Shown in pieces: positions 3,033 to 44,932 of a stretch of 64,000 nucleotides of DNA (its first letter is position 1; every line of letters begins with the position of its first letter). The notes beneath the pieces were generated by a model. The model was given only the letters and a program-made list of their open reading frames with translations, ran no database searches and was not told the origin of the DNA. The DNA is taken from NCBI RefSeq assembly GCF_964204645.1, contig NC_134027.1, forward strand, positions 23,274,560-23,338,559, in the 5' to 3' direction. The position numbers and the translations under genes are program-made. The stretch comes from Tubulanus polymorphus. Its lineage: Eukaryota; Animalia; Nemertea.

Positions 3033-6000
3033 AAGCGACGCTGAATTATTTCGCAATATTTTACGTCCGATACAGGATCGAGCGAAGAAGATGTCAGAAT
3101 ATGGATGTCACGTGCCATTTTTGGAGACGATCACGTTCGAGCCCGATATCAGACTGAATCCGGTATTCGATCCTCAGAAAACTGATTACAGCTCTAATGT
3201 ACCGTACAGTATCCATCTCATCAAAATCGACGTCACCGCAACCGGCTGTTTTATGGCTGCTCGTATAGACGATAAATATGGAGTATCCAGGTGGGTAAGT
3301 TACCCTTGATCCCTGCTGTATACCTTATCCTTCCCTTCCCTGTACACTATACCCATCCGAACCGCCCCCTTCCTCTGTTTTCCCAATCTTCCGTATTATT
3401 ATGCGGTATCCATCCTCTATTCACCCCGCTCCTCTTTTTCAAAATACCTATACCCCTTCTTCATTATTACACTATCCTTCCTCTGTACACCTTTCCCTTC
3501 TTCCGTATATGCGGTATCCATTCTCTGTTCGCCCTTCTTCAAAATACCCACCCCTTTCTTCATGTCAAACTGTCCTATCTCTATACGCCCTCCACGTTCA
3601 CCTTCCCGTTCTTCTACATGCCCTTCCCTTCTTGTTAAACCCCTCTTTTTTCTATACGCCTTCTTCTTCCTCTGTTCACTCTTCCATTTATCAGTATACG
3701 CTGTTTTTCATTTCTATTCCCATGCCTTAACCCTATCCTCTGTTCACCCCGCTCCCCTTCTCTATGAAAGAAGTTTCCAATTAGTTTCTAAGGCGCAATT
3801 TTGTGGCGGTCCCTCGAGGTCCCCATTGTTGCGATAATTTGTGCTCATTTCTAAAACATATGTTTTGATTGAATATCATATAGCTATGCAGTCCCTTACT
3901 TGATTAATTCAATTTATAGACCATTTTCAAGGAAATGAAATGCCGGTAATCTGCCGGGGATTATTAAATTCTTCTAACGCAGTTACGGTCTTATACCAAG
4001 GATCGCATACTTAACCGCGCGTCAAAAAACTTGCGATTTGTATTAATTCCTTCCCTTTTTCATACGCTGTCTCTTACCGTCTCCCGACTTCCTCTGTTCA
4101 CTCTCCCCTTACCCTGTTCGTTTTGGTTATGCCTACAGTTCTTTCTCTGTCCTTCTCTGTTCACCAATTCGTATTCATCTACATGCCCTTCCCTTCTTGT
4201 TAAAACCCCGTCCTTCTTCTTCCTCTGTTCGCCCTCCCCTTCTTCTTTATAATATCGACACCCTCATCATCTCTGCCCCCATATCTTAACTCTAGTCTCA
4301 CCCTCTTCCTTTCTATTGTGACAGTGGTATTATTGAGTTTCAACAGCAGTCTCAATTCATAGGCAGTGCTGCCATCTTCTAACGATATCATAAACTATTC
4401 CGCATTCATTATCCAACTCATTCAACAGTGCCATCTTTCGTGATAAAACTTTCGAACGTTGTTCCAGCGTCAGCTTTCATATAACTTTTTGTACTGAGAT
4501 TGAACCTTAGGAAAATTACGACTAATGCGCGTCAGTTGTTCGTAAGTATTTGCTTCTGCGAGCAACGACTGCCGCTGAAGAACATAATTCAAAGTTAATG
4601 TTACATTTTTATGGGAAACTGTCACGTATAATGTCCTTTTGTAATTATTTCGGTTGAATAATGATATTTTTATGGGCAACGCTGTTGCGCTAACGACAAA
4701 TTAACGGGCTTTGGCAATGTCGTTCGCTAATGAGATGGGTTGGAGAATTGACTATATATACTGGGGTTTTTGGACCGTGGGGGAGACCGCTAGAAATTTT
4801 TAGATCGTTGAGATCGGTTCGTGAAATAAAAGTAATTTTGAAGACAGGAACTCTGTGTGTTGCGACTCGTTTATTCGTGGACGTTTGTTAACATTCTATC
4901 ACTCAAGTGGAATTCAAAGATCCCGTTAGTGACAAATGGTGGAGAACCTGGCGGGCATTTTACTTGAGTGAGGTATCGAGCCATTTAACAAAACCAACGG
5001 AAACAAAGATAATTCACTGGAACAATACAGGAAGTAGGAACTCGAGAAACGCACGGAAAATGGATTTTGGTAAATATTGAACAATACTTGTTATTTAATT
5101 TTGATTTCGTCGTGTGCGTAGAACAATTTTCTGTGGATAGACCGAATATTTTGCTGTCTCCTCCGGTCTATCGTACATTTAATTGACTTAATATTGAAGA
5201 ACCTAGAAATTATTTGATTGAATTTGTGTATGCCGGTCGAAACGAGGTCTGGAATGGACCGCGCTTTGGCAGATAGACTAGCTGAAATGACAGCCAAAAT
5301 TGACGATAAGCCAATGGGCATGACTCGTCTACAACCGCCACAGTTTACCGGTACGGTAAGCGAAGACGCTAATATTTGGTGGCGGCGGTTCACCCAATAT
5401 TCTACTTTCATGGGCTGGACCAACGAAAAGAAACTTAAAGCAGTGGGGCTGTTTTTAGATGGACTTGCTTCGGCTTGGTATTGGACCGTGGTCGAGGCAA
5501 GCAAGTCAAAAGACGCAACCGTTAAGACAACGGCGAATAGTATCTTATCAGATATTGACAACTTTGAAAGGGAATTCAAAAAGAAATTCGATTCTGGATC
5601 AATGAAATGGGTGCGTGAGCAAAGTTTAATGAACAGAAAACAATTACCGGGGGAATCGTTGGACGTCTATCTTCAAGACATCCAAATACGTTCGGCGGCT
5701 CTTGAAAAGAACGATCATGATTTAATGGTCCTATTTATCAATGGCTTGGCTGACAATTTGAGAGCGTTTGTCGTATCTAGATCACCAAAAACTATGGACG
5801 AAGCCGAACAATACGCGCGCTTGTATGAATCCGTGTTGGCGCTGCAGGCGAAACCGCCTCCAATTGCCGGCATCATACCATCCACTGAGAACCGAAATGA
5901 AATTTCGGATCTCAGGGATGAAATCAGGAATTTAAGCCGGGAAGTCTCGAGACTTCAGGTACAGGTCCGGAGGCAGGATAATAACCTGCCGCCACGAAAT

Positions 6001-9000
6001 TTCAGATCTGCTTCCGGATCTGTAGTTTGTGGTAGATGCAATCGAGTTGGGCATCACGAACGTAATTGTTTTAGGCAGAACGGTAGTTATCGGCCGGATA
6101 GACGGTTTAATAATTCTAACAATAATTTCGGTAATCGTTCCAACGATAATCCTAATAGATTCAGGCCGGGAAACAACCCCAGGCCCGGATTTTAGGGGAT
6201 GATTCCGAGCCATTAGAAATTAAATCCCCATCTCATTGTGGTAAGAGTAAACTGATAAAGAACGAAATATTTCCAGGCTTTAATTCCAGTACAAACGATC
6301 AGACTATTAATTCTATTCCAATTTTAGCAACTGTTGCATTAGCAGTTCCTGGAAAGATTCATGGTAATTCCACCAGTTTCCTTGTTGATACTGGCGCGTG
6401 TGTTAGTTGTATTAGCCAATCACTGTATGATTCATTGAATGAAAAGCCTCCGCTAATTCCAGGAAAATATGCAAATGCGCACACTGTCAAGGGTGATTCA
6501 TTTCGCTTGGCTGGTATTGTAGAATTAACGATCGAGGTCTCCGGGAAACCATTTTCTCACGAATTCTATGTGGTTCCAGGATTGGTTCAAGATATTATCT
6601 TAGGTGTAGATTTTCTGGAAAAATATAAAGTTTTGATTAGTTTTGAAGACAAACGAATTTTCATAAAGGGTGAGACTTCGGTTGCTATAAACGGAATCCA
6701 TAATATGTGTGGTGCTGTAAAATTGAAAGTAATGACTGATTTATCTATTCCAAAATTATCACAAGTTATTCTACCGGTTAAATTATGTGAATCACTTCCA
6801 GACGGAACCACTGGAATGATAGAGGGATATCCTGGTTTATTGCACAAATACCATGATCAATTATTGGTTGGTAAATCATTATGCACCGTAACGGCTAATA
6901 CAGTACCGATGCTCGTGTTGAATTGCACTGATGATGATATAATTATTCATTCGGATCAAAAATTAGCATTTTTCTTGCCACAATTTGGTGATAAAGGAAA
7001 ACCTGCTTTTGATATATGTAGCGGAAATAATGGGGAATCGAAAGTAGATTCGTCAAATCAAATTGTAACAGTGAATGGTTTGGAAATCAAACAGACCGCT
7101 AAACCGTTTTTATCCGCTGATGAATTACAGGGTAGTCCTGATATCGATTTAGAAGATTCAGATTTAACTGATGTACAGAAAAGTGAGTTAATGAATTTAT
7201 GCATGGAATTCAGGGACGTTTTTGCTAATAATATTCGAGAAATTGGCCGTACAAATTTAATTACACCAAAAATTGAAATTGAAGGGCCACCAATTAAATC
7301 ACGACCCTATCGATTGGCTCCTGTTTTAGAAACGGAATTAGAAAAACAATTAGACGACATGATGGAAATGAAATTGATTGAAGAATCATCGTCCGAATGG
7401 AGTAGTCCTTGTATTCTGGTTAAGAAGAAGGACTCTACATATCGGTTCGTTGTAGATTTTAGAGCCTTGAATTCTCGAATGCGTAAGGATCATTATCCAC
7501 TTCCATTAATTGATTCATTATTGAGTAAGTTAGGTCAGAAAAAGCCGGTTATTTATAGCAGTTTAGATCTTTTCTCGGGTTTTCATCAGATCGAAATTGA
7601 TCCTCAGAGTCGGGATTATACTAGTTTCATAACACCGCGTGGTTTATATCGGTATACTGTTCTACCTATGGGATGTAGTATTAGCCCTGCAGTATTTTCT
7701 AGATTAATGTCAAGGGTTTTACACAGACTAACGTACGATATATGTCTTGTATATTTAGATGACATAATATGTTTTGGCTCCAGTTGGCAAAATCATTTGG
7801 ATAACTTAAGGCGAATTTTCGAAAGACTTAGACAGGCTGGCTTAAGGCTGAAGTCTAGAAAATGCGAATTTGGGAAGAAAGAATTGAAATTCTTAGGTCA
7901 TATTGTTACACCGGAAGGTGTTAAGGTTGACCCCGAAAAAATTTCGGCTGTTGTCAACTACAAAGCCCCTAAAACAGTTAAACAGATACGTAGTTTTGTT
8001 GGGCTTGTGTCCTATTATCGGGCTTTTGTGAAGGGTTTCTCCGAAATAATCAGACCTCTCACGGCTTTAACTCAGAAGGGTAAACCTTTTAATTGGACCG
8101 AGGAATGTCAACAGGCATTCGAAAAATGCAAACAAATTTTGACTACAGCTCCAGTCTTAGCATATCCAAATTTCAATGAAAAATTCATATTATACACTGA
8201 CGCTAGCAATTATAGCGTTGGATTCGTTCTTTCTCAAGGAAAAGACCCAGAGCGAGTTATATGCTATGGGACTCGATTATTCAATAAAGCCGAACAAAAC
8301 TATACTGTCAGTGAGAAAGAATGTTTAGCGGTAGTTTATGGTGTAAAGAAATACGAGCCCTATTTGTATGGCCAGAAATTTGAAGTAGTTACGGATCATA
8401 GTGCCTTGAAATGGCTAATGACTATGAAAGATCCGAACGGTCGTTTAGCTCGCTGGGCAATGAAATTGTCTCAGTATGATTTTGATATTGTTCATAGAGC
8501 GGGGAAGAAACATTTAAATGCAGACGCTTTGTCGAGACCGGTATATTCAATCCCAACAATTATTGGTAGTAACGAGGATGGATATCCGTTTCAAATTGAA
8601 ATTGGTGGTAAAATGAATGAAAAAACAAATGATTGTAAAACTTGTACTTGTGATTTTCAGTGTGGATGTGTAGATGATATTATTGATATTAACAATAAGG
8701 GTTTTTCCTTATCTTTTGAATCGCCTCCTGATGCCTATAACGCGCGCGATGACGCACGCGTAATGATAACTTATAATAATAATGAATTAAGCGCTGAGGA
8801 TATATTAATGAGTAATAGCTCCAATGAAAATGATTGCAAGGCTGTGGTCAACGCTGGACGTGACACAGACACCTTGTACCCCATGGGGATAAATAAAAAT
8901 GAAGAAGAGATAAATGAAACTGAAATAGGGATCAATGAAAATGTACAGGGGGGATGATTTCGATATAGGCGATAATGTCTATATGTATGGTTTCGATAAT

Positions 9001-9562
9001 TAGACGATGATATGAAATGGATTATAAAGGATGATAAATAAATATATTTGTCATAGTAAGAGGCATATTATAATGAAGAGGCGCAATGAGTACTCGATTT
9101 CGATTGTATGTTTGTAATAGTGTAGGTCAGGCCTGCGTATTTTACTTGAGTGAATAAATTGTAGTGGAATATGAAATGATATTATATGTTGAATATTGTA
9201 TTTATCTAGGCGAGCGTTTAGGCAGCATCAGAGCTCTTGCGGTGCAGAAGTGTTTTGAGAGGCTGGGTGCGGATGACCCGTTCGGCCTTCACGTAATGTG
9301 CTAGTAACCTCTTACGTGACTCTGATGTAGGCTGCTTTTAGATTAAAAGTTACGTATGTACGTAAATTGTAGTGTGATTATTGTAATGGAATTAAATTGA
9401 TGTTTGAGGATGTGCGTGTGATATGGTAGTGATTATGAAGTTATATCTGTAATGTTTACATTTAATGGCTTGTATTAGATATCTAATTGATAGTGTCTCT
9501 TATAATCATGTATGGTTATTGGTATTTACGATATATAATGATGTAGGTGTATAACGTATATG

Positions 9563-9595
<33 letters not shown>

Positions 9596-12500
9596 AAACA
9601 TTCTTTGTGATGTGTTTAATGTCTTGGTATAGTGTGCTGTGTTCACCTATTTTCGTATAATGATACCTACTATTATATATTATGCACATGGATTGTGGAT
9701 TTCATCTTATATTCTTATAGATATTGTTCATTTTAAACATATAAGTATAATGTATAAGAAAATAATTACTTACCGTTTGTACGGTTGTGTTGGTCGCTTG
9801 TAATCCATGGCGTATGCTGTATCTGCCGTTGCGCGCCGGTATGATGCTTTGCTACTCTTAATGGCCATTAGTCAAGATTTATGACTCTGTATCCAAGCAA
9901 CCATTATTATCGGATGTTAATGTTTTACATAATGGTGTTGTAGTTGTATCAATGAATGGAAATTTTTTTTTTCCTGTCTCATGTCATGATGACCTAATGT
10001 CACTTTTTACTTAACATTTAACATGTATTTGTATTATCCAATTCTAGTCCCTGAGGACAGGGCCTTTGCGGAAGGGGGGTATATGTGACAGTGGTATTAT
10101 TGAGTTTCAACAGCAGTCTCAATTCATAGGCAGTGCTGCCATCTTCTAACGATATCATAAACTATTCCGCATTCATTATCCAACTCATTCAACAGTGCCA
10201 TCTTTCGTGATAAAACTTTCGAACTTTGTTCCAGCGTCAGCTTTCATATAACTTTTTGTACTGAGATTGAACCTTAGGAAAATTACGACTAATGCGCGTC
10301 AGTTGTTCGTAAGTATTTGCTTCTGCGAGCAACGACTGCCGCTGAAGAACATAATTCAAAGTTAATGTTACATTTTTATGGGAAACTGTCACGTATAATG
10401 TCCTTTTGTAATTATTTCGGTTGAATAATGATATTTTTATGGGCAACGCTGTTGCGCTAACGACAAATTAACGGGCTTTGGCAATGTCGTTCGCTAATGA
10501 GATGGGTTGGAGAATTGACTATATATACTGGGGTTTTTGGACCGTGGGGGAGACCGCTAGAAATTTTTAGATCGTTGAGATCGGTTCGTGAAATAAAAGT
10601 AATTTTGAAGACAGGAACTCTGTGTGTTGCGACTCGTTTATTCGTGGACGTTTGTTAACATTCTATCACTCAAGTGGAATTCAAAGATCCCGTTAGTGAC
10701 ACTATCATTTGCTAATTTCCACTCTCAGCTTCTCGTGTTTGTATATTCATCATCACAGTCACCCTCATTCCCTTCTTCCCTCGTAACCCCGCTTTTTATA
10801 TTTGCTATATCCCTACTGTGCAAGTTGAACTCTCTAAGGGCGGCTTTATAGTGTCCGAATCAGAGCGGGATGCATCCCCGCATATCATAAACAAAAGGGG
10901 GCTACCCTGAAGTATTATAGCTAATCTGAAAATGTAGCTCATTTTCCGAAATACGGAGCACTGCTTAAATAAATTTAAACATTTGTGGCCAGAAGTTTGA
11001 TATATTTAATTTTTCGGTGAAACTTCGGATCCCACCGATGTCCTCCCTCTCACAAAGCCAACCCAAACAGAAATGCCTTTACATCAAATGAAATATTCAT
11101 TCAACCGGCTAAGTATTTCAGAGTTGTGCGGCAATCTTCAATCCTAATTGATAATTTTTTGATAATCCTCCGAACGACTATATACACGAATGAAATGAGC
11201 TTTCCCTGGGCAAGAGTCAGGACGTTCAATCACTCTGACCGCGCTCTAGATGACTTCATCATAAAACAGGTTTAACGGAGACGCAAAATCAGCGGGCCCT
11301 ATTCGTCATCACAGTTAATCCTATGATCGATGAGAATTGGTCAACGAATCGGTTTTTAATGCATCTTGAACAAGCATGATTTACAACCTGATAATACAAA
11401 CCACCAGCTCTCATTACAAATAATAAACGAATACGAAAGCCTAATGGTGCATTACAGAAGAGCGAAAAGAATTACCACCAAAAATCGATGACAACTTCCC
11501 TTCTTCCTACTTAATATCTTAGAAATACATCACAGAAATGTCCTTTCAAAATAAACATCGCCCAAAATAAAATGTGGAGGAGCCGGGGTTCGAACCCGGG
11601 GCTTCTCGCATGCGAAGCGAGCGCTCTACCACTGAGCTACACCCCCATTCTAACCTCACGCCTGGTAGAGAGTAACCACAAACTTCCGTTATCACACACC
11701 TGCCTAAAGTGACATCGAAAAAAAATATACGCATGTGGAGGTGCCGGGGTTCGAACCCGGGGCCTCTCGCATGCGAAGCGAGCGCTCTACCACTGAGCTA
11801 CACCCCCATCCTTCTAATCGTCACAACGCAGACACTATTGAATATCAACAGACTTTACGCATGCCGATATAAATCAATGCATGAAAGTTTTCAAGTTTTC
11901 GATGAAATCTTTTCGGATTTACGCTCATAGAGTAATAAGTACCTTCCTTGCCCGATGAGCTAGATTGAATTACTATTCTGTAGTTTGAAAATCATCGTGT
12001 TAATTATAATTTCATTCGGATTGTTTTTCAGGACGAATTACACGCTGGGTTTAGGAGCCAATCGAATCGCAGTTTACATCATAGATACGCAAAATGACGC
12101 CATCATCAATACGTACATATTCCATTTGCATCGACAAAAACTGGGCGAAACGTCACCCGAATTTGCGCCCTACGCCAAGCATCAAGTCTGTCAACAAGTT
12201 CAGGTATCAAAGTTTTCAAGCTTTTTCGCGTGGGATCCGAAACCCAGATTAACCTTATTATTCTTTATGAAGAAACGAATTTAGATCAATTCATTTTATA
12301 TCAAAAAAAAAAGATTTTCGGTTTTTATCCTAGGACATTGTCAAACAAGACTAGATGTACTTCAAGTTATTTTATCGTTATATACATCGGTCCAAGCATA
12401 GTTCTTTTACAGTTCAATTCATTTTCCACACGAAAGGCAATACGAAAATGGCTCTGACTTTTATCTCATCGTAGACAATGTGATCTAAAATCTACACCGA

Positions 12501-20498: not shown

Positions 20499-22229
20499 CA
20501 TATAACAGCTCCAGTAGCCCGCTCCGTAAACTAGGAACCGATTGAGTCTGTATAGTGTATCTATCGGTGCTTACGTTTTGTTGACAGAAGACTCCTCCGA
20601 ACTCGGCGCCGATCCAGCCAGCCGGAAAAATCTTAGCAGAAAATCGAGATTTTGTCCCAGTAGCGGGAAGAGGTGTCGGCATTCCGTTATAAAGCTGTTC
20701 TGTGCATAAAAGTCTTCTTAATCACTCAACCTTGATGCAACTTGTTAATGATAAAGGAACTTATGATGAATGCAACATTGATTTGAAGATGCGAAATGTA
20801 ACATATAATTTATGTACATTATTTGTATTTAAATCAGCTCATTTTACATACAACGCCCTTTCTCAGTATTTACACTGATATCATAAATAATGTATTAGGG
20901 GTGCTGGGTATTCCGCATAAACCCTACTATGCTTTAACAGTGTGTCCATCATACATATTATAAGGAGTATATATCACCTTGGCAAATATAGCTGATACAA
21001 CCCGGTGCGTTTGTCAGACGCCCTATTCGAATAGAACAAAGTGATTTGGTCGTCGAATACAGTAAATTAGGACAGGATTGCGGGTCGAAGCAGTCTTACA
21101 GCCGTTACACTAGCGATAGGAACTAAAAGCACGATCTACAAAAATGTGTACGGTCGTCTCCGTTTTCTCTTTTCGACAAATTAAAACTATTTCGAACAAA
21201 TATCACCACTATCACACACGACCACGATGGTTAGGTTTTCTTTTCTATGGTTTCGGTCGGTTTTTCTACGGTTTCGGTTGGAGACGGCGATTGCGACTTG
21301 TAGCCCTGGTGGTGAAACGTGGAACTAAAAGTCAACGGAAGAAGCAACTGGTAATTTTCAAAATGTCAAAATTGCTATATCATAGAGTTACAATTTCCTC
21401 CACCAGGGTTACAATATGCCAGTTCCCACCTTCGATTATATCGCTTAGAATATACCCGCAGTCAAATAGAAAATGATTGCGCAATTCCGGCGATACCCGG
21501 CGAGGTTAATATATTCAACTGGTTAATTTCAGACAACGAAGAAACCCGGACAAAAGAAAACAGTTACGACCGTTTGTAGTTTGTGGTAAGGGGCACATTT
21601 ACAAAAAGCTTAACTCGATCTTATCCGCGAAGATAGAAAGTTTTAAACTCTACACTTTTTAAAACTGCAGTGCCATTGGGTGAAATAAATAAGACCCCGA
21701 TCACTAAAACCAGACACTTATAGTTATAGCTGCGTAATTGCGATATAATAATTGCCATATTAAGCAATGTTTTGCCATCAATTATCATCGTGTGTTTGTT
21801 CATGAAAAGTATATTCAATTAAAAGTAATTTTGTTTGTTATTCTGTTTTCTTTTTGCCGTTATCTAAAAGCTTGTTTCTCTCCAAAGTGTTCCAAAGTGG
21901 CGCGTTGGACTAAAATTAATTTCCCTTTGGAGTTGAATGTTGAATGTTGAATGGAGTTGAATGAGTTATAGTACATGTACCATGAAACAGAACATATTCA
22001 GAATCAATTCGTGGCTGTGCTGTCCTGAGGGCAATTGAACAGTCATAGATGTGCCACCAGTTTACAAGACATCACTTACTTCTATCCAATCTATACTAAC
22101 GGATTGAGCATAGTCTTAGAATTTAAGACAGCTTTTGGACTTTACGCCACGACTGTGCAACTGTATCTATATACACATTACTCATCAACCATGATTAATA
22201 CAATGCTATACCACATCCGTCGGTGTAGA

Positions 22230-25200
22230 CTAAAAACTAGCGATTCCCAAACGACTGGCGGCGTTCAAACAAATAACAGACACATTCATGAATCCTATTT
22301 CTTCGGTTTCGTCATTTTTGTCCAGCACTGGATGAGAAAGAGAGAGAGATAAACCTCGCAATTGTAAGCTATAGAATCGAAAATTTTAAAACAACTGGTT
22401 CATGCAAACAGCGGGCTAAGATAGAACTGTATATGGCCGAACTCAGTTCCGCGATCAAATAGGAGAGTTATCGTTCTATTTCCAAGTCCAGTGAAACTGG
22501 GCGACAACAAATTGAACTAAATGGATAAATTGTCCTACACCCCTTGTATTTGAATGTCGGAGGGCAGAGAAACCCTTAAAAAGGCAGTTGCCTAGAATCA
22601 GACACCGATATAACGATATGTAGGCCTTAACATCAACTCCGTAGGGCCTGCAACAAAATGCTTGTAAGTTCCAAGCGAAGGAATTTCAATACAGAAAGAA
22701 TTTTTTCTAAAGGCACGAGCAAACACAAATTAAGAGCATTTTTACCAAAGTACGGTAAGTTAAGAGCTAGGTAACACTTCGTAAAAATGAGAGATTAAGG
22801 TTCTTAAAGTAATGACCGCCTACATAATTGGTTTTTTCCAAACACTTACCGCGAAGATTAGTCTTAACCAAGTCCTCTCTCGATGCGACGATATCTGGGA
22901 AATTGACGTAAGCGACACCTATATCTTCGCATTCTTTATCGTTATCCAACGGATCGCTGACAACTGTGAACCGAATTCTGCATTGTGAGTTTCAAAAGAA
23001 AGAATGGATTGGTAAATATCTCTAATTGATTTTTGGAAATGATGAACGTGGCCCTTTTTCAATCTAGCAGTTTGGCTGCCTGCGGATTCCATATTCTAAA
23101 TCATAAATCAATCGAGGGACTCTGGGTTGGATAAATCGCAACGGCTTCCGTAGAATTCTACAGATCACGCGGATTGTCGTCGAGGGATTCTGCATCTGAG
23201 GAGGGTTACCTACCTGCCTTCTTCTGGACGCTTCGGTCGCGCTAATGCAGACAATAGCATTACCCTCGTGGCGTATTGTTCGGCATCAATACAAAATTCT
23301 GAAATATAGAATGTAGAAATAATTATATTAACAGATGCAACAAATAACAAGGCGGTTAGGAAAATTTGCGTTTCGAAATGTGCTTTCTTCCTATCTAGTC
23401 AACACGCGGGATCATCAACTTAGAGGACTTCTACATCAACATCTACCCGAGAAAAAAAAAACCACAATAAACTATCGGACTATTTACACGTAGAAAACGA
23501 CCAAAAAAATATAAAAATGGACAAAATGATCTTGTAATTAGCTATTTCCAGAATCTCATTGTATTAAATTAGGCAGCCAGAAAAATTCATCCCAATCAGT
23601 CGCTTGCCGGTTCAGACTGAATGGGAGATTGTTTGGATGAACCGGAACCGAATTTCCAATTATGTACTTCGATTTTAAAATATTCTGTTAACTCGACCGC
23701 CGATCACACATCTATATCTGTACTTCGATTTCCGATTTCAAAATCAAACTGTTTTGCTCCCGGCAGGTGTGGTGGGTCTGTAAGGGACACTCAATCGAAA
23801 AATCAAACAAAATTTACCAGCCAAATAAATAAATAATGGGGACAATCCCTATTTTAAGATCAAAGAACTATTTCGGTTTGGATATTACAGGGTGTTTGTC
23901 TCATACTATACATAAAGAACTGCCTGTCATTTTCAAACCGCTTGAGACAAATCAGCAAAATCTTCAGGAGAGATGTAATAAAGATAAATAGTATTGGAAT
24001 ATTGATCAGTTTCTTTTTATCATAGACCGTTTTTTAATCTAGCTGTTCAATGAATTTCACATTCATGTTTTAGATGTTTTTATACTATAATCGAAACGAA
24101 ATGAATTGAATACCCGCGTAAAACTGCGCGCGGATATCGGGAAACATATACAGAGTTTCCTCGAGTACAAACCTCGATGGTAGTCGAGTCTAATGATTTT
24201 ATTCGGCTTAATCGCACACGCGGAAGCCGCCGTTTCTAGCTGGTCTAACGGTAGGTCTAAAAACGGAAAGAACTCGACGAATATTCGCTCGGTCGCGGCG
24301 GCAGACGACTCGCGACGATGCCGGCGAAATATCGACGCTTTTTTATTCAGGATGACGCAATGAACGCTTATTAGAATGGAAGGAGCATTCTGAAATGAAA
24401 ACAAGAAAACTAACTTAAACGTTTTTTGACGTATTGAATTTTAGTAACCTACATTTGCGTGGTAACTGGCTGGGGGTTACCACGCTACTATACTGTATAC
24501 TTGTCTCATGCACGGTTAGCAAAATAAACACTTACCTTTTTTTGATCTCGGGAAGTGGATTCGCTTCGAACCATCACGTTCCCCGGACCGGTACAGCGAT
24601 CTATAATTTGAATTAATAAGTTTTCGGTCGGAATGAGATTGAAGTAAAGAAGAAATTGTTAATAAAATTGTCACCTTCAGTTTTCTTGTGCGCGATGACT
24701 ATTTTTTCAACCGTATCTGGAAATATAGAACGAAATATCAATCCAATCTATATTGCAATTGCCGTCTTTCAATGAGAAAATCTAGTGCTTGCGACCAATT
24801 ATTGATATATTTTGAAAATTCGAGGTTTTCTGGTCGATTAAACCGACTTTGAAAGAAAAGAAAGTAAAGCGAAAAGAAAAGTAAAAAAGAAAAAATGACA
24901 TCGTATGAAAAGCGGTTAGAAATGCAACCCTTCATGAAGTTTCAAACTGCTGTCTTTACCCGGCCCCATCAAAATAACCTATCAATATCTTAACAAAAAC
25001 TGATCACCAATACTTCACCAGGTCTCCTATCCGGAGCATCTTAATTTCTCTGAAGCTTAATTTTTCTCGGGCATCTTTTTTCACCTGACCCCACGAACAA
25101 AGATATTGTTCACCGTGCGTGGTGGAATGATATCATACAGACTTCGCCTGTCAAACGGTATTGCTCCGAGGGTATCAGATATGGGCGGCAGATGAGAGAT

Positions 25201-26070
25201 CGGTCACAATGTACCCTTCAGTTATTCATAGATACCGGATAATAGCTTCAGTTGAACTTTATTCAGCCCTCTTCGCAGTGGTTCGTACCAACCATCGACG
25301 CCTATACCGTATTTTTGTCTCCACGTGTCCAAACCCGTTTCGGCTTTCACCCTCAAACTGTCGCGATAGTAAGCGTACTCTAACTCGGTGATGTCCACCG
25401 GTGTCAGGCCGATTTTCTTCAGCATCGATCTCCAGTCTTTCAGGAAGAACTGATTCGCCAACAAGGCCTCTTTCACCTCTTCCCAGATCGATTCGTCTAA
25501 AACAGCATGTAATATTTACACGTCGGAAAAAACAAACAAAAAATATAGAAATGGCCAATACATCATTTTCAACCCTTAGTTTCTTCCAAATCTTGATGCA
25601 TTGAATTAGACAGCCAATATAGTTAACCCTAAACTGTCATTTTCGGTACAGGCTAAAACCAAAATGGAAATTTCCAATAAAGTAATAAAATGAAAAATAG
25701 AATATGTAAATTCGACCAATCATCCCACTGACGATGACACCGGGTCGTCATTAAAAAAAATCTAATTGTTGTCTAATTAATGGCGTACGTGCTTTTAATT
25801 AATAAAACGAAATTATTGACCGGCATTTCGGTCAAACTGTACTTTGGTCGAGCTCAAAAAATGCTGAAAGACCTCCGACATTTCCATAATAATCGATACT
25901 ACATACTTCACTACAAGTAAAAAGGCTTACTGTAATGGAGCGGCTTTTAGTCAAACTCTCTGAAAGTTCTTATTAGATTTCGAATACCGTGTACGTTAGC
26001 CTTTAGCTCGTTTGAAAGTAAAACAATCGAGGATTATATTATCATACGTACCCGCAGCTATATCGTCCAT
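22230..26070 (-). CDS. 304-aa protein: N-terminal Death-like domain plus RPGRIP1/RPGRIP1L-type C-terminal C2 domain
   Basis: Eight GT-AG exons with matching phases, 915 nt total: 26070-26052 (ATG), 25496-25236, 24716-24675, 24600-24536, 24389-24173, 23298-23214, 22977-22850, 22327-22230 (TAG). Death-like: KDWRSMLKKIGLTPVDITELEYAY..LDTWRQKYG..LRRGLNKVQ. C2: RIFVEFFPFL..LET, RIRFTVVSDP..ECEDIGVAYVNF, IGFMNVSV. Confidence 0.82.
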
Positions 26071-28694
26071 TTCGGTAATACTGTTAATAGAGGAATACGT
26101 ACTCATAAAATCGGTTGGAAATACCAGTTTCCGTAACAAAAGAGTTCCCACACGCGGCCGGAATGAAAATAAATCGACTTTTCAATCCGATTCAATAGCG
26201 ATATAAACTTTTGAATACTTATTGTATATGTGTCAACACATATATCTGGTCTCGGTAAAAGTCATTAAAGGAACGTAACAGTTTTTTACTTTGAAAATTG
26301 TGAAAGTGTGTGACAGTGTGTGTGACTTGAAGTCAGCTTGGAGTAGATCAACACAACCCGAACGCTTGAATTGCAAACTAATACTAAAGTTTATTTCATC
26401 CCATGAAGTCAGATTATCATTACGTGCGCACGCGTAGTACTATAGCTCGTGGTCAACCCACGTACGTAACACAAACTCTTAAAAGGTGTTTCTGTTCCAG
26501 TAATAAATGGTTTCCGGACATTTAGAATTGCGTGGTAGGGTGAGATGAGTCAAAGTTAAGATAATACTGATGTTAATTCTCGACAAAAATGTATAAGGTG
26601 AATTCAAAAGGGAAGAAAGTATCGGTATTTTACTTCAACCTAATTTTGTTTTCGTTGTTGTTGTTGCTGTAGCTGTTGTTTTTGTTTCCCGAAACGTTGG
26701 TGTTGGTTCGCGATTACTGATGCTAATAAACTAAGAGGTAATTATGATACGACTGTAAGTTCAGTCCCGACGAATCGGCTGAAAAATGGCAGTTGTCATT
26801 CAGCCAAACTTAAGTAATTTTCCATAATTCCCGTCATTTCGAATTCGAGGGAGCTTTGCAGTAAACCGGCTATCGCTGCCTTGCAGCTATATTTATTATC
26901 ATTATTATTACTGTATATCGATTTGAGGTAACAATGCGGTTATATTACGGAAAACCAGAGAATCCAAAAGAACGTTACACCGGTCCCGCATATACCGCAA
27001 TACGTGCGAAATAAATTATGTGCGCTGCTTTGTAAGATATGTAAAACTTCGTCCTGTGGCTCATCTTATTGCGAAGGCAGTTATATTGTAACTGAAAATA
27101 AGTTTTGTGAACGGAACCATTCAAAATGCCCTGCTCTCTACTGGTAGGGCAGTACAAACTTAATTGGGAAATGTTTCTTGGATATTGTACGTTCGATGTC
27201 TTGTGCCTTGTGAAATGATATGACGATGGAAGATAATTCATTAGAGGTTTAACATATGTACAATAGAATAATCTAATCGATGCCTTCCAGAGGTTGCTGT
27301 TGCAGCTTATGAGTTGTTTGATGACAACATGACTAGTGCAGTTCAGAGCTCGGTGTAACATGAATCGTTTGCGAAGGTTTTGGATTTATCGACCGCTTAG
27401 TGAGTTTCGGGCCCCCAATTCCCCAATATATGCGGGTATGAGACGAATGGCGTTGGGATTTTCAATCGTCGATTAATCAGTAAACTTAATTGTGTAAATT
27501 GCGCGAGGAATGGAAAATTCAGAATAGTCGCGATACAATTATCTCACATTAAATAATTGACTGTATTGGATAAGGTGAAATTATGAGCTACTTTGAAAAT
27601 TCGAGAATTTGGACAAAAACAATTTGTTTATAAAAATCCAACCAGAAACTTTGCCACTGTTGGGTCGATCCTGTAATTCAGAGATGCTTTGGCTGCGAGC
27701 ATCAACACGTTTCAGCGTAAAACATTCGATAGGGAAATCCTCCTAACAGATTAAGCACCCTTTGTAATCATTTCTGATAAAGATTGACACTAACGCCAAA
27801 ATCCGTTTGCTCCTGGATGGTGGGAGGCAATGAAGATAAGCGTCGCCAAATGTTAACAGAGATCACGATAACGACCTTCCAGCCCAGAGTTTAACGCTCT
27901 AACCAATTCAGAAATGTTTCCCATTGTTTTGGCTTCGAGGCTCTGGGCCGCAATTTGGTGTAATGAGAAAATCCTCTTTTACAGAACGACAGCCCCAAGT
28001 GAGATCAGTTCTATAATTACCCAAAGCTTTATCGTCATATACTTAAACTCATTATTTTATGAAAAAGCTGCCAGCTCCACTATTTGAATAGCCAGGAAAA
28101 TCCTCCCTACGAAAGGACGAATGTTTTTTTTCTGCATACGTGTCATTTTCAGGTTATATGTTAAACACGTCTACTATACACGTGGTTAGAAATACTTCAA
28201 GGTATTTAACTATGAATTATTCTGGGAATGGCTTGTTTTCATATTGTACATCTTTCACGCCTTTTGGGTGCAGTAATTTCTTTGTCGTTTTCTATTTTGG
28301 AGATACATTGTTCCAGGCGCACTGTAAGCTCGATGTTTCAGTTTGGTGCCTGCAAATGGTTGATGAGACAATGGGCCAATCAGATTTTAAATATCTGCAT
28401 AATACAATGCGTGAAGAAATGTTGGGCCAATCATATTCTTCTTGATCCTCATAGCCTTCGTCAAGTGTAAGAGATACATTTAGGTATTAGCATCTTGATA
28501 TAGAAAATCTTTTCAGGAAAAGCTTCTAATAAACTGAGATCCAATGAGCAGTTAAATCTATTCAATGACGAAATCGAAAAACAACAAATCAAATTAAGAC
28601 TAGGGTTAGTCTAGATTTTTCGATTATATATTACCACTAGTTGCGAGCATCCATCGCATTCAACTGGCAATTTTGTCGTCAAACCTTCGACACG

Positions 28695-30600
28695 ATGAAC
28701 GCGAACAAAATTTTGCTGGTTATTTTCTGTTTAGGCGTCGCTAAGGTTTTATCTGAGGTTCAGTTTCAGAAATTCGTTCGACTGCCGGAATGTTCGAGAG
28801 AACGAAACGAGACGAATTCGCCAAACCGGGCGAATAAAACTGACGTGATCGGAAGCAGAAAGGTTCGTAGCGCTATCGAGTGCGGTGCTGATTGTATGAA
28901 CGATGAGAAATGTTCAATGATGTCGTTCGCTAAGGACACGGGAAATTGTTACCTCTTCGATGTTGGCATTAACGATGAGTGCAGCACCACTGACGGCAAA
29001 ACCAAGTACTACAAGGTAAGAGTAAATGTGCACATTCATTACGTAATAAACAAAATCGTTGAAAATATTAGTAACTGGGTGGATAGAATTATTTTGATGA
29101 TGAAAATATTTGATAGTGCGATCATTTTTAGTCCACCTTGAGTCGAACCTGTATTTGCTGGTCATAGGACCCTTTGCTATTGCCATTTATATTACAATTT
29201 CTTTGAAATAAGTTACAGCACCATTGTGTACTTTAGCCATCCTAGGATGCTAACGTATAAATCTGAAATTAAGACTAGCCATCCCTTTACTAAAGCTCAT
29301 TGTTAAATACTCTTTCATGTTAATTGTTCATTTACTTCATTTTTTAATTCATGCATCATAATTTGTAAGCCAAATACGTATTTTACATGCAATTAAATGG
29401 CAATAACATTACATCTTTATATCATTATTGTTGTTCGTAGTGCAGAGGTTTAAGGGCAGTAACATGTCCAGTTCGATAGCGTTACACTGTGTGGTTCGAA
29501 ATCATGAATAACTACTATATCTGTGCTCTACGTTCTTTCAGAAGACCAATCGTGAATCATCATCCACCAGTGCCAGCACCAGCACCGACACCAGCAGTAG
29601 TAGCACTGGTACCGAAATTACCCCTCAAGCAACGACAAGTAAGATATTTATACTTCAAATGATTTGAATTTTAACTCGGACCCATTATAGCGAAATAAAA
29701 GTTAGAATTTAGGACCAGTCTAATACCATCTTTATGATTACATAGCTCATCTAACAAGTCTTAAGATTTTGCGTCCAACTTCTGACTCTTGGAAAACGAC
29801 CGTGTGCAATATGCCCAGGTTCAACTGTCCTCGTAAAAGTATCACGTGACCTCACAGTAAACTAATCAAACATTTCGATACAACGTTGTATACATATAAC
29901 GATATGACCAAGTCAGTCCTGAGTGCATCACTAACTCAAGGCATAAAACGTTTAATTTCTATCTTTAGGTGCCGCCATCGAGAAGTTAAATCCCCCAAAA
30001 TTCCGTTACTTTTACGATTTCGAAAATGTCGATACCGAAAAAGGAATCGTACACGGCGAGGGGGCGAATATGAAAGCCGAAAACGAGCTTCGTCAAAATG
30101 GAAAACTTCAACTGGTCAAAGGTGTTGATAACAGTCAAACTGTATCGTTATCGAATACTATGAAACTAGTTTTCGGCGATTCAAAGGACGTGAACGCGAT
30201 GGGAAATTACTCGGTTTCGTTTGTCTCGCGAGGACCTCGCGGAGTCGTCACTATTTCATGCAAACTTTTCGACATCGCTTGGTTCGATCGCAATAAGAAG
30301 TTGTTCGCGTGTCAACGCGTTCAGTCGAAGAAAACTTCGAAATATCGGATTAACCTTTTGCCCGATTCGGATAAATGGATTTCAACGACATGTACAAACG
30401 GGATTCTTTATTTCGGAAATGAACAAATAAAGCCATTCGAAGAATCTGATATGTTGATAAAGAGAGTGAGGCCGCCACAGATAGGTGGGAAGGTGGATGG
30501 CTTGAGGCGGGGAAACCCCTCGAAAGAAGAGCATTTATACGCAGTCCAGATGACGGGTGAAACCTTAATCGATAATTTTACATTGGAAATTTGGGATTAA
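28695..30600 (+). CDS. Secreted 349-aa protein: signal peptide, PAN/apple domain, Ser/Thr linker, probable LamG/ConA-like beta domain
   Basis: Exons 28695-29015, 29542-29638, 29969-30600 with consistent phases. Signal MNANKILLVIFCLGVAKVLS; PAN pattern SAIECGADCMNDEKCSMMSF..GNCYLF; C-terminal domain starts YFYDFE and ends IDNFTLEIWD. Confidence 0.8.
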
Positions 30601-42989: not shown

Positions 42990-44689
42990 AACCAATCCAT
43001 ATGGTACAGTTTTTCTTATCAGTTACGATGCCGCTAGTACCAATCGTCGTGGATACGAGTTCTAAACGTTGGCCTCAAGTTTGACACCCGATGTAGGACA
43101 GGTTTTAGTTTAGGTTGCTTTTAACTACGGCTTAGTAAAAATGAATTCCAAACGATGGTATTTTTGCGATGGTTAAAAAGAATAGAAAGTGAGTTAGTTT
43201 TTTGTTTCGGTAGCAGTTGTGTAAAAGGAAAAAAGCTGTGTAAAAATACCTTCATATACTCCGAACACGGTTAACCTCGATATGAAATCTACAAATATAC
43301 TTTAACTCGTTGGCGATATGAAAATTCTTCTATTTTTGGCAAAAGTATACATAGTCTTTCTAACCTTGCCGCTAAATTTTCGATGAAATCAATAGCATAT
43401 CGTTAAGATCTACAAATACCCCACCATTGTGTTAATGAATCAACGTTAAAAAAGCACTTATCAAATCGGGTGGTACAAATCCAATTGAAATTGAATTCAG
43501 ATTCGGTCCCCGGATTTAGGAATCCAAAACACATCAATTCAAAGTAAATTTTATTGAGCTAAGCGCCAGTAGATAATTCCGGGGACCACGTCGTGATATG
43601 TCATGTTAACGTCGCTATGCAGTCACCATATCAGGTTAGAAACGCCGAAAATAAGTCTGATTTATTTCATTTCAATTATATTCCCTCTAATGTTTGCATA
43701 TCAAGCCTTAAGACGCAATATTCGTTTAAAATCGGTTTGCAATCATTGTTTGGGTTTGAAGGAAAACCGTCCTTGTTCATATCGGTTTACAAGCCGATTT
43801 TGACGAGCCAGTGTCTTCACACAGTCTTCACACAAACAAGGTGAGCGGTTTGCAACATCACAATCCGACTTTTCAAAAATGACGAGCCTTATAGAAGTGA
43901 TGCTTCTTGCTGGTAACACTATCATCAGCCATTTTGGAATTACCCACAGTAAACTATCGCAATTTGTTTTTGCTACGCCAAACCGGCTTGGGAAGCAATA
44001 AACCGATGTTAAAACCGGTTCTACAAACCGATCTTTAAAAATGCATCCTCGATTTTAGGCAGAAAACCCCTTATCGTTGCTCTGCATTATATTTTGGTTT
44101 TGTGTTCACGACACGACGGAGTATCCGGTTCGTGGGGTATCACGAATCAAAAGAAAGAAATACCAGATAAACTGCAAATTAATTAACTACATTAAAAACG
44201 CCATTTACAGCTTCGAATGTTTCAGCACTTCTGACATTAAATCAATTTATGCTATATTTGATCAGCAACTTACTGTGGAACAATGGTTGGCGATAAGATC
44301 GATACCACTCAACCAACAGCCGTTTAACGGACAAATGTCACCAATTCGAATAACAAAAAAGTGACCTTGGATGGTAGATTTATCAAACCAATCGATATTG
44401 TGGAACATTTGTCCACATATCAGTTTCTTGTCCGCTATGGATCCATCATCATTGGTATGAGTTCTTTCTAAACGATTGCCTATTGTTTGACACCCGATGT
44501 CGGACTAGTTTTAGATTGCTTTTAACTACTGCATGCAGGAGTTGAAAACTAAAACCGTGCATTGGCTGTAAAAAAACATGCGCTGTTATAGATTCATGAC
44601 AAAACGGCTCGCATAGTGAAGGTGAATTCAAAGCGTGTTTTTGCGATGGTTTAAAAAGAAAAAGAAGCGATTAGACGAGAAGATACACA

Positions 44690-44932
44690 ATATCCGTGTA
44701 TGGTGATGGCGAGAGAAATCCCAACGAAGTACGCCTGATGATGGCTAACAGTTGTTAGCCGAAACGTCGCTCCTCAAATACAATCACTCTGGTATAGAAT
44801 TTTCAATCTTTGCTTCGTTATTGTCATCTTCACCCGTCAAGGGATTCGAACCCACTACGCTAAAGCTGTTCCCCGAACCCCTTGACCTCACGAGTCGTTG
44901 GAGTCGTTACTAGCCGACCAGAATCCGGGCGT
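44690..44932 (-). mobile_element. Putative tRNA-derived SINE-like fragment with a hammerhead-like motif at its tail
   Basis: Minus strand starts GCCCGGAT and carries a B box GGGTTCGAATCCC; the plus strand has CTGATGA-hairpin-GAAACGTC at 44735-44768. Second copy at about 58810-59058. Confidence 0.4.

What the first reader, a model, noticed from the sequence alone, without database searches (positions are those of the whole stretch)
22230..26070. Death-like domain fused to the RPGRIP1/RPGRIP1L C-terminal C2 domain
Seen: an 8-exon, phase-consistent 304-aa ORF. One symmetric phase 1-1 exon (25496-25236) encodes a Death-like pattern (DWRSMLKKIGL..ITELEY..LDTWRQK..LRRGL). The last four exons match my recollection of the RPGR-interacting C2 domain (RFTVVSDP..ECEDIGVA..). 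Established: that domain normally ends large coiled-coil/C2 ciliary transition-zone proteins, and Death domains are homotypic adaptors in immune and apoptotic signalling. I know of no protein with only these two domains. Inference: exon shuffling produced an adaptor that might link death-fold signalling to cilia or membranes.
Basis: partly seen in the sequence, partly recalled or inferred. Interest (0 to 1): 0.72.

Follow-up and report, generated by a model that had tools for sequence, protein, structure and literature searches.

The report
Death domain joined to RPGRIP1-type C2
A ribbon-worm gene encodes, in eight clean exons, a small protein with a death-domain-like module at the front and the RPGR-binding C2 module of the ciliary protein RPGRIP1/fantom at the back; no other protein found here has this pairing, it would likely act as an adaptor, and neither its splicing nor its function has been checked with RNA or experiments.

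Summary
On the minus strand, 22230-26106, eight GT-AG exons give one open frame whose translation equals, letter for letter, the public 316-aa protein 'protein fantom-like [Tubulanus polymorphus]'.

The last four exons encode a full RPGR1_C domain (PF18111, 90.3 bits against a cut-off of 22.9; PDB 4qam_B E 7.5e-17). Exon 2, a symmetric phase 1-1 exon, encodes a diverged death domain:
- Pfam Death scores 21.1 bits, just under the 22.6 cut-off.
- phmmer over 1.84 billion proteins matches this region only to two amphioxus proteins (E 7.7e-8, 1.8e-4), each with two strong death domains.
- The best PDB matches are RIPK1 death domains (E 7e-4).

None of 104 other RPGR1_C proteins scanned carries a death domain, and no second protein matched both halves.

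The protein lacks the coiled coils and central C2 domains of fantom, so it is not a fantom orthologue. An adaptor role is inferred only.

Still open: no RNA evidence for the key exon 2-3 junction (the weakest donor), no orthologue, and no check for full-length fantom or RPGR in this genome. I read it as a lineage-specific domain-shuffling product, of moderate interest.

The parts
26052..26106 (-).
25236..25496 (-). Exon 2, 261 nt, symmetric phase 1-1: the whole death-domain-like module (residues 19-106)
   Evidence: Pfam Death 21.1 bits, E 3.4e-4, cut-off 22.6. phmmer to amphioxus double-death-domain proteins E 7.7e-8 and 1.8e-4. RIPK1 death domain in PDB E 7e-4. Atlas structural neighbours are death-domain clusters.
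24675..24716 (-). Exon 3, 42 nt, phase 1-1: linker (residues 106-120). Its junction with exon 2 is what fuses the two domains.
   Evidence: no RNA support obtained
24536..24600 (-). Exon 4, 65 nt, phase 1-0: linker (residues 120-141). Contains Met128, a possible start of a RID-only product.
24173..24389 (-). Exon 5, 217 nt: first part of the RPGR1_C (RID) C2 domain (residues 142-214)
23214..23298 (-). Exon 6, 85 nt: RID C2 domain, continued (residues 214-242)
22850..22977 (-). Exon 7, 128 nt: RID core, including the conserved F245, P251 and C258 (residues 242-285)
   Evidence: This exon alone gives PF18111 42.6 bits; invariant columns
22230..22327 (-). Exon 8, coding part with stop TAG at 22230-22232: end of the RID domain (residues 285-316)
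23333..24017 (.). High-copy interspersed repeat inside intron 5. It is not part of the protein.
   Evidence: Summed contig depth up to about 86,000 against about 43-46 for the flanks in DNA run X1

Best explanation
This is an intact eight-exon nemertean gene whose annotated product joins an N-terminal death domain to the C-terminal RPGR-interacting C2 domain (RID) of the RPGRIP1/fantom family, and it would likely work as a small two-headed adaptor.

Shown:
- The exon structure and its identity to the public 316-aa model.
- A complete RID-type C2 domain in exons 5-8.
- A diverged homologue of RIPK1/FADD-type death domains, all within one symmetric phase 1-1 exon.
- The absence of fantom's coiled coils, C2-C2_1 and central C2 domains.

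Inferred:
- The gene arose by exon shuffling. A mobile death-domain exon was placed in front of a DNA-level partial copy of the 3' exons of a fantom-like gene. The introns kept inside the RID part argue against a retrocopy.
- The death domain would make homotypic contacts with other death-domain proteins.
- The RID would hold an RPGR-like RCC1-repeat protein, as the RID of RPGRIP1 does. The protein would thus couple a death-domain signalling assembly to an RPGR-type partner.
For: Gene model:
- Seven GT-AG introns and consistent phases give a 951-nt ORF identical to P0001, 'protein fantom-like [Tubulanus polymorphus]'.

RID domain:
- PF18111 scores 90.3 bits (cut-off 22.9) over profile positions 5-158 of 165.
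- phmmer to 4qam_B, the RPGRIP1 chain of that entry, gives E 7.5e-17.
- F245, P251, C258 and G296 are invariant in a 26-sequence alignment.
- Atlas structural neighbours are RPGR1_C clusters, TM 0.52-0.53.

Death domain:
- Pfam Death gives E 3.4e-4 for the exon alone.
- Of 130 proteins at E <= 0.001 in 1.84 billion representatives, the only two matching residues 30-107 are amphioxus proteins (E 7.7e-8, 1.8e-4).
- Each of those two has two Pfam death domains, scoring 126.6 and 127.9 bits in total.
- The four best PDB sequences are RIPK1 death domains, E 7e-4 to 2.9e-3.
- 19 columns are invariant in the three-sequence alignment.
- For residues 13-125, all 10 structural rows of the Atlas are clusters carrying PF00531, TM by query 0.64-0.78. 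In 8 of the 10 the aligned part is PF00531.

What the RID does:
- The RID of RPGRIP1 is a type II C2 domain that binds RPGR and does not bind Ca2+ or lipid. RPGRIP1L binds RPGR in a similar way (abstract PMC4519163).

Precedent:
- Lineage-specific shuffling of death-fold and TIR connector domains into new combinations is documented in amphioxus (passages of PMC2575513).
- The RID also occurs in small mussel proteins behind a B-box (P0009 and four cluster mates).
Against: - There is no transcript evidence for any junction. The exon 2 donor (CG|GTATCT, 5 of 8 consensus positions) is the weakest of the seven.
- The Death match is below Pfam's gathering score (21.1 and 18.6 against 22.6).
- My own AlphaFold model of exon 2 with a three-row alignment was poor (pLDDT 64.8, pTM 0.39) and found no death-domain structure.
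- The protein is a singleton: no orthologue and no second protein with both domains.
- Its RID sits on a very long terminal branch, 1.21 against a median of 0.25 among 97 RID domains. That also fits relaxed constraint.
- Whether this RID keeps the RPGR-binding surface was not examined. Whether the worm has RPGR or a full-length fantom could not be tested.
Confidence: 0.6

Rival explanations
1. The fusion is an artefact of gene prediction. The locus would hold two units: a small death-domain-only product (exons 1-2, reading through the exon 2 donor to a stop five codons later) and a RID-only product starting at Met128 in exon 4.
For: - Reading past the exon 2 donor gives ...SGIYE then a stop.
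- The exon 2 donor is the weakest of the seven.
- Exon 3 is only 42 nt, so its open frame carries little weight.
- An in-frame Met lies in exon 4.
- No RNA contig could be laid on the region, so nothing confirms the junction.
Against: - The public model joins them.
- Exons 2, 3 and 4 are phase-compatible with canonical sites, and exon 3 has a good acceptor (13 of 17 pyrimidines).
- Only 519 nt separate exon 2 from exon 3, leaving little room for a terminator plus a promoter.
- No AATAAA or ATTAAA lies in intron 2. This test is weak, because none lies in the 730 nt after the real stop either.
Confidence: 0.2
2. It is a real but functionless or decaying chimera: a young or drifting by-product of segmental duplication that is annotated because its frame is still open.
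For: - It is a singleton with no orthologue in the protein libraries searched.
- Its RID has the lowest PF18111 score (90.3 bits) of the full-length RID domains scanned. Lower scores belonged only to four matches covering less than the whole profile.
- Its RID has a long terminal branch.
- Its death domain is sub-threshold.
- The surrounding window is rich in repeats and recent duplications.
Against: - Eight exons remain open with all splice sites canonical.
- All four columns that are invariant across the 26 aligned RID sequences are kept in this protein.
- The conserved Trp and Leu-Gly positions of the death domain are shared with the amphioxus domains.
- So much divergence with no disabling change suggests continued selection.
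Confidence: 0.15
3. The N-terminal module is not a death domain but an unrelated helical segment that resembles one by chance.
For: It is below Pfam's gathering score. My AlphaFold model matched only generic helical hairpins (best Z 6.7; Foldseek best E 1.3).
Against: - E 7.7e-8 in a library of 1.84 billion proteins, to proteins that carry strong Pfam death domains.
- RIPK1 death domains are the four best PDB matches.
- All 10 structural rows of the Atlas's own model are death-domain-bearing clusters.
Confidence: 0.04

Closest known systems
RPGRIP1L (fantom, NPHP8/MKS5) and RPGRIP1, C-terminal RPGR-interacting domain (Pfam PF18111; PDB 4QAM chain B)
   Same: The C-terminal 170 residues are a complete RID-type C2 domain: 90.3 bits, E 7.5e-17 to 4qam_B, with the family's invariant F, P, C and G kept. 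As in those proteins, it is the last domain.
   Different: - There is no coiled-coil region, no C2-C2_1 (PF11618) and no central C2 (PF00168). Of 41 long relatives, 35 have PF11618.
- It is 316 aa against roughly 900-1,400 aa.
- The RID is at most 40% identical to any relative and has a 7-residue insertion.
- The database name 'fantom-like' describes only its C-terminal half.
Death-domain adaptors and kinases of the RIPK1 / FADD / CRADD type (Pfam PF00531)
   Same: The best solved matches are RIPK1 death domains. The Atlas structural neighbours are FADD, PIDD1, RIPK1 and TNFRSF10B clusters. Like FADD or CRADD it is a short two-module protein.
   Different: The second module is a RID C2 domain, not a DED, CARD, kinase or TIR. 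The death domain is diverged and below Pfam's cut-off.
Amphioxus tandem death-domain proteins (KAI8520658.1 of Branchiostoma belcheri; XP_078617483.1 of a Branchiostoma hybrid)
   Same: These are the closest sequence relatives of exon 2: 26-30% identity, 19 invariant columns.
   Different: They carry two death domains and no RID, and they belong to another phylum.
Mytilus edulis B-box + RPGR1_C proteins (CAG2186541.1 and four cluster mates, 241-255 aa, auto-named 'RPGRIP1L')
   Same: They are small lophotrochozoan proteins in which the RID has been detached from fantom and put behind another small interaction module. They are among the nearest RIDs by tree distance.
   Different: The partner module is a B-box zinc finger, not a death domain, and the mussel form is a multi-copy family.
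Lineage-specific death-fold domain shuffling in invertebrates (amphioxus: PMC2575513)
   Same: It is the same kind of event: a connector domain is recombined into a combination not seen in model organisms.
   Different: This pairing is not among those I saw described. I read only passages of that paper, not its supplementary lists.

Membership tests
Death domain (Pfam PF00531, death-fold superfamily) | Score at or above Pfam's gathering threshold (22.6 bits) | tested here: not met
   21.1 bits (E 3.4e-4) for exon 2 alone and 18.6 bits (E 0.0021) for the whole protein
Death domain (Pfam PF00531, death-fold superfamily) | Significant sequence similarity to undoubted death domains | tested here: met
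   phmmer E 7.7e-8 and 1.8e-4 (library of 1.84 billion) to two proteins whose Pfam Death scores are 126.6 and 127.9 bits. RIPK1 death domain in PDB E 7e-4.
Death domain (Pfam PF00531, death-fold superfamily) | Six-helix death fold | tested here: inconclusive
   The Atlas's own model of residues 13-125 has death-domain-bearing clusters in all 10 structural rows (TM by query 0.64-0.78), all under the service's bar for naming a family. My AlphaFold model (pLDDT 64.8) gave no death-domain match.
Death domain (Pfam PF00531, death-fold superfamily) | Homotypic binding or oligomerisation with other death domains | not tested
   No partner is known and no complex prediction was run
RPGR1_C / RID-type C2 domain (Pfam PF18111) | Score above the gathering threshold over most of the profile | tested here: met
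   90.3 bits against 22.9, profile positions 5-158 of 165, residues 146-307
RPGR1_C / RID-type C2 domain (Pfam PF18111) | Similarity to the solved RID of RPGRIP1 and conserved core residues | tested here: met
   4qam_B E 7.5e-17. F245, P251, C258 and G296 are invariant in 26 sequences. Atlas structural rows 1-3 are RPGR1_C clusters.
RPGR1_C / RID-type C2 domain (Pfam PF18111) | Binds the RCC1-like domain of RPGR | not testable with these tools
   The worm's genome is not held. The full paper with the interface residues was not in the library. Only the abstract was read.
RPGRIP1L / fantom orthologue | Full architecture: N-terminal coiled coils, C2-C2_1 (PF11618), central C2 (PF00168), then the RID | tested here: not met
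   Only PF18111 and a weak Death match in 316 aa. Of 41 long relatives, 35 have PF11618.

The most novel reading that the evidence does not exclude
A nemertean-specific adaptor physically wires the RPGR/transition-zone module to a death-domain signalosome. The RID would bring an RPGR-like protein, or the ciliary base, into a RIPK1/FADD-type assembly. That would give cilia a direct input to, or output from, immune or cell-death signalling by a route unknown in any model animal.
Probability: 0.15. Interest if true: 0.6.

Novelty: new variant of a known kind. Interest (0 to 1): 0.38.

Why it matters
Both modules are well-understood protein-protein connectors from pathways that are normally separate. 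Death domains nucleate immune and apoptotic signalling complexes. The RID is the handle by which transition-zone scaffolds hold RPGR. A natural protein made of just these two handles would be a compact, testable probe for cross-talk between ciliary gating and death-fold signalling.

Together with the mussel B-box-RID proteins, it also shows that the RID can act as a portable module outside fantom.

Its weight is limited. It is one gene in one species, without expression data, in animals where lineage-specific death-domain combinations are common.

Tried and rejected
RNA support
- The run search listed no RNA holder.
- The one possible RNA run of the species (X5, 'RNA?' is a guess) laid 0 contigs on 22100-26200. 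DNA run X1 covered the whole stretch.
- So the junctions are untested, and this says nothing about expression.

Own genome
- No genome is held, so there was no test for full-length fantom, RPGR or paralogues.
- None of the 20 long RID hits whose names I looked up is from Tubulanus.

Structure
- The single-sequence AlphaFold model of the whole protein was useless (pLDDT 34.8).
- Exon 2 with a three-row alignment gave pLDDT 64.8 and pTM 0.39.
- Foldseek against PDB gave no match at E <= 0.001. The best was a T6SS TssA domain at E 1.3; the RIPK1 death domain came second at E 3.5.
- VIA-align wide gave only generic helical matches, best Z 6.7, within the tool's stated noise for helical models.
- Two attempts at one alignment covering both domains failed. 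MAFFT placed the amphioxus death domains wrongly, so those alignments were not used for folding.

Word-indexed protein searches
- Exon 2 with 'longer' found only the protein itself. The whole protein with 'near' also found only itself.
- The RID profile found 27 proteins, mostly fish, 0 with PF00531.
- The precomputed Pfam column also lists P0001 as PF18111 only, so it would miss weak death domains.

Other
- No second death-domain exon lies in the window. A local HMM over 2,215 six-frame ORFs gave no hit other than exon 2 with E below 3.
- The poly(A)-signal test for a death-domain-only transcript was uninformative.
- Literature: two papers hold 'death domain', 'RPGRIP1L' and 'C2 domain' together. 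I searched one of them (PMC9783631) for passages and found no physical link between RPGRIP1L and death domains. I did not open the other (PMC9456058).
- The full 2014 structure paper was not found in the library.
- I did not open any supplementary files. The domain-partner lists of PMC2575513 could bear on novelty.
- InterPro and CDART architecture queries are not available here.
Full report
**What is there**

The window has about 38% G+C and is eukaryotic. On the minus strand between 26106 and 22230 lie eight exons:
- 26106-26052
- 25496-25236
- 24716-24675
- 24600-24536
- 24389-24173
- 23298-23214
- 22977-22850
- 22327-22230

All seven introns begin GT and end AG, and the phases fit. Joined, the exons give 951 nt with one terminal stop. 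The translation is identical to a public protein of 316 aa named 'protein fantom-like [Tubulanus polymorphus]', a palaeonemertean ribbon worm.

**C-terminal half**

- Pfam places RPGR1_C (PF18111) on residues 146-307 with 90.3 bits (cut-off 22.9), covering profile positions 5-158 of 165.
- Exon 7 alone already scores 42.6 bits.
- Against PDB sequences the best match is 4qam_B, the RPGRIP1 chain of that entry, at E 7.5e-17.
- In a 26-sequence alignment, F245, P251, C258 and G296 are invariant. The worm protein has a 7-residue insertion early in the domain.
- The ESM Atlas's own model of the protein has RPGR1_C clusters as its structural neighbours, TM 0.52-0.53.
- According to the abstract of Remans et al. 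(PMC4519163), this domain is a type II C2 sandwich that does not bind Ca2+ or phospholipid. It binds RPGR, and RPGRIP1L binds RPGR in a similar way.

The domain is spread over exons 5-8 with introns in phases 1, 2 and 1. The RID part is therefore not a retrocopy.

**N-terminal half**

Exon 2 (261 nt, phase 1-1, residues 19-106) contains the whole Death-like match.

- Pfam Death (PF00531) gives 21.1 bits (E 3.4e-4) for the exon alone and 18.6 bits for the whole protein. Both are just under the gathering score of 22.6. By Pfam's own rule this is not a member.
- phmmer of the whole protein against 1.84 billion cluster representatives returned 130 proteins at E <= 0.001.
  - One is the protein itself.
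  - 127 match only the RID region.
  - Two match residues 30-107, at E 7.7e-8 and 1.8e-4.
- Those two are amphioxus proteins, each with two Pfam death domains (126.6 and 127.9 bits in total) and no RID.
- Aligned with them, exon 2 shares 19 invariant columns.
- Against PDB the four best sequences are RIPK1 death domains (E 7e-4 to 2.9e-3). CRADD follows at E 0.8.
- The Atlas's own model, restricted to residues 13-125, has death-domain-bearing clusters in all 10 structural rows (FADD, PIDD1, RIPK1, TNFRSF10B and others). TM by query is 0.64-0.78, and in 8 of the 10 the aligned part is PF00531. All are under the service's bar for naming a family.
- My own AlphaFold runs did not help. The whole protein without an alignment gave pLDDT 34.8. 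Exon 2 with a three-row alignment gave pLDDT 64.8 and pTM 0.39. Fold searches on the exon 2 model returned only generic helical matches.

I conclude that the module is a diverged death domain by homology. Direct confirmation of the fold is still open.

**What it is not**

It is not a fantom/RPGRIP1L orthologue. It has no coiled coils, no C2-C2_1 (PF11618) and no central C2. Of 41 long relatives scanned, 35 have PF11618.

**Is the pairing known?**

- No protein other than the query matched both halves.
- I scanned RID-bearing proteins with Pfam: 38 (E <= 0.05), 41 (E <= 0.001) and 25 (E <= 1e-4). That is 104 proteins, and 0 have a Death match.
- At the two stricter thresholds a match as weak as this protein's own would have been missed.
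- Of the 127 RID hits, 93 were scanned this way. The 34 left out are shorter than 230 aa and cannot hold both domains.
- A local death-domain HMM run over all 166 fetched proteins hit only the query and the two amphioxus proteins.
- A profile search of the 5.8-billion-protein collection found 27 proteins, 0 with PF00531. It was word-limited and fish-dominated, so it is a weak survey.
- Most short RID proteins are fragments from short contigs.
- One real exception is a Mytilus edulis family of 241-255 aa with a B-box zinc finger in front of the RID. So the RID has been reused as a portable module at least once more in Lophotrochozoa.
- In a tree of 97 RID domains the worm's domain has a terminal branch of 1.21, against a median of 0.25. 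Its nearest neighbours by distance are invertebrate, namely a gastropod fantom and the Mytilus B-box protein.
- Earlier notes of this scan describe sponge CARD + PH-C2 proteins. That is an analogous death-fold-plus-C2 combination, which I did not test.

**How it most likely arose and works**

The death domain sits in one symmetric phase 1-1 exon, the classic form of a mobile module. The RID part keeps introns. A death-domain exon placed upstream of a partial DNA copy of a fantom-like gene's 3' end is therefore the simplest origin (inference). Such lineage-specific recombination of connector domains is documented for amphioxus (passages of PMC2575513).

Functionally, the protein consists of two protein-protein handles joined by a linker of about 40 residues (residues 106-145). 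It would most likely act as an adaptor. The death domain would join a homotypic death-domain assembly and the RID would hold an RPGR-like partner. None of this is tested.

**Weak points and rivals**

1. No transcript evidence could be obtained.
   - The junction that creates the fusion (25236->24716) has the weakest donor, 5 of 8 consensus positions.
   - Reading through it stops after five codons.
   - Exon 4 holds an in-frame Met.
   - A death-domain-only product plus a RID-only product therefore remains possible (about 0.2).
2. The gene is a singleton on a long branch in a repeat-rich, recently duplicated region. It may be a drifting chimera without selected function (about 0.15). Against that, eight exons remain open and the conserved core positions are kept.
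3. That the N-terminal module is not a death domain is now unlikely (about 0.04).

**Verdict**

The structural interpretation is supported. The functional inference is open.

It is a new domain combination built from two known modules by a known evolutionary process: a new variant of a known kind. Interest is moderate (0.38). It is a neat, testable natural link between ciliary-gate and death-fold modules, but it is one unconfirmed gene model in one species.

Noticed in passing
window 4317-10383 (+): An apparently young LTR retrotransposon of the host animal. Two 300-nt direct repeats are 100% identical (4317-4616 and 10084-10383). They flank a gag ORF (5218-6195, Retrotrans_gag) and a 932-aa ORF with aspartyl protease, reverse transcriptase and RNase H (6159-8957). 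No integrase match was seen in the ORFs scanned.
   Followed up: partly
window 33726-62717: A tandem array of about five copies of a 6-8 kb unit, with start-to-start spacings of 5.9, 7.6, 6.5 and 7.8 kb. Most copies are 96-100% identical, and there is a higher-order period of about 14.1 kb (for example 44054-45097 against 58175-59223, 99-100%). This points to very recent segmental duplication. The ORFs I scanned in it had no Pfam match.
   Followed up: partly
window 23333-24017 (intron 5 of the gene): A very high-copy interspersed repeat. Summed contig depth reaches about 86,000 in DNA run X1, against about 43-46 for the neighbouring unique sequence, with many variant copies and internal joints.
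   Followed up: no
window 28641-29141 (+): An open frame of 166 aa with a PAN/Apple domain match (PF00024, 25.3 bits; PF08277, 21.9 bits). It is probably an exon of a neighbouring gene on the opposite strand.
   Followed up: no
P0027 (Aplysia californica XP_005106495.2, 2237 aa): A very long mollusc protein whose only Pfam match at E <= 0.001 is a C-terminal RPGR1_C domain. This is another unusual context for the RID.
   Followed up: no
P0009 and cluster mates (Mytilus edulis, 241-255 aa): A small multi-copy mussel family with a B-box zinc finger directly in front of an RPGR1_C domain, auto-named 'RPGRIP1L'. It shows that the RID is reused outside fantom.
   Followed up: partly
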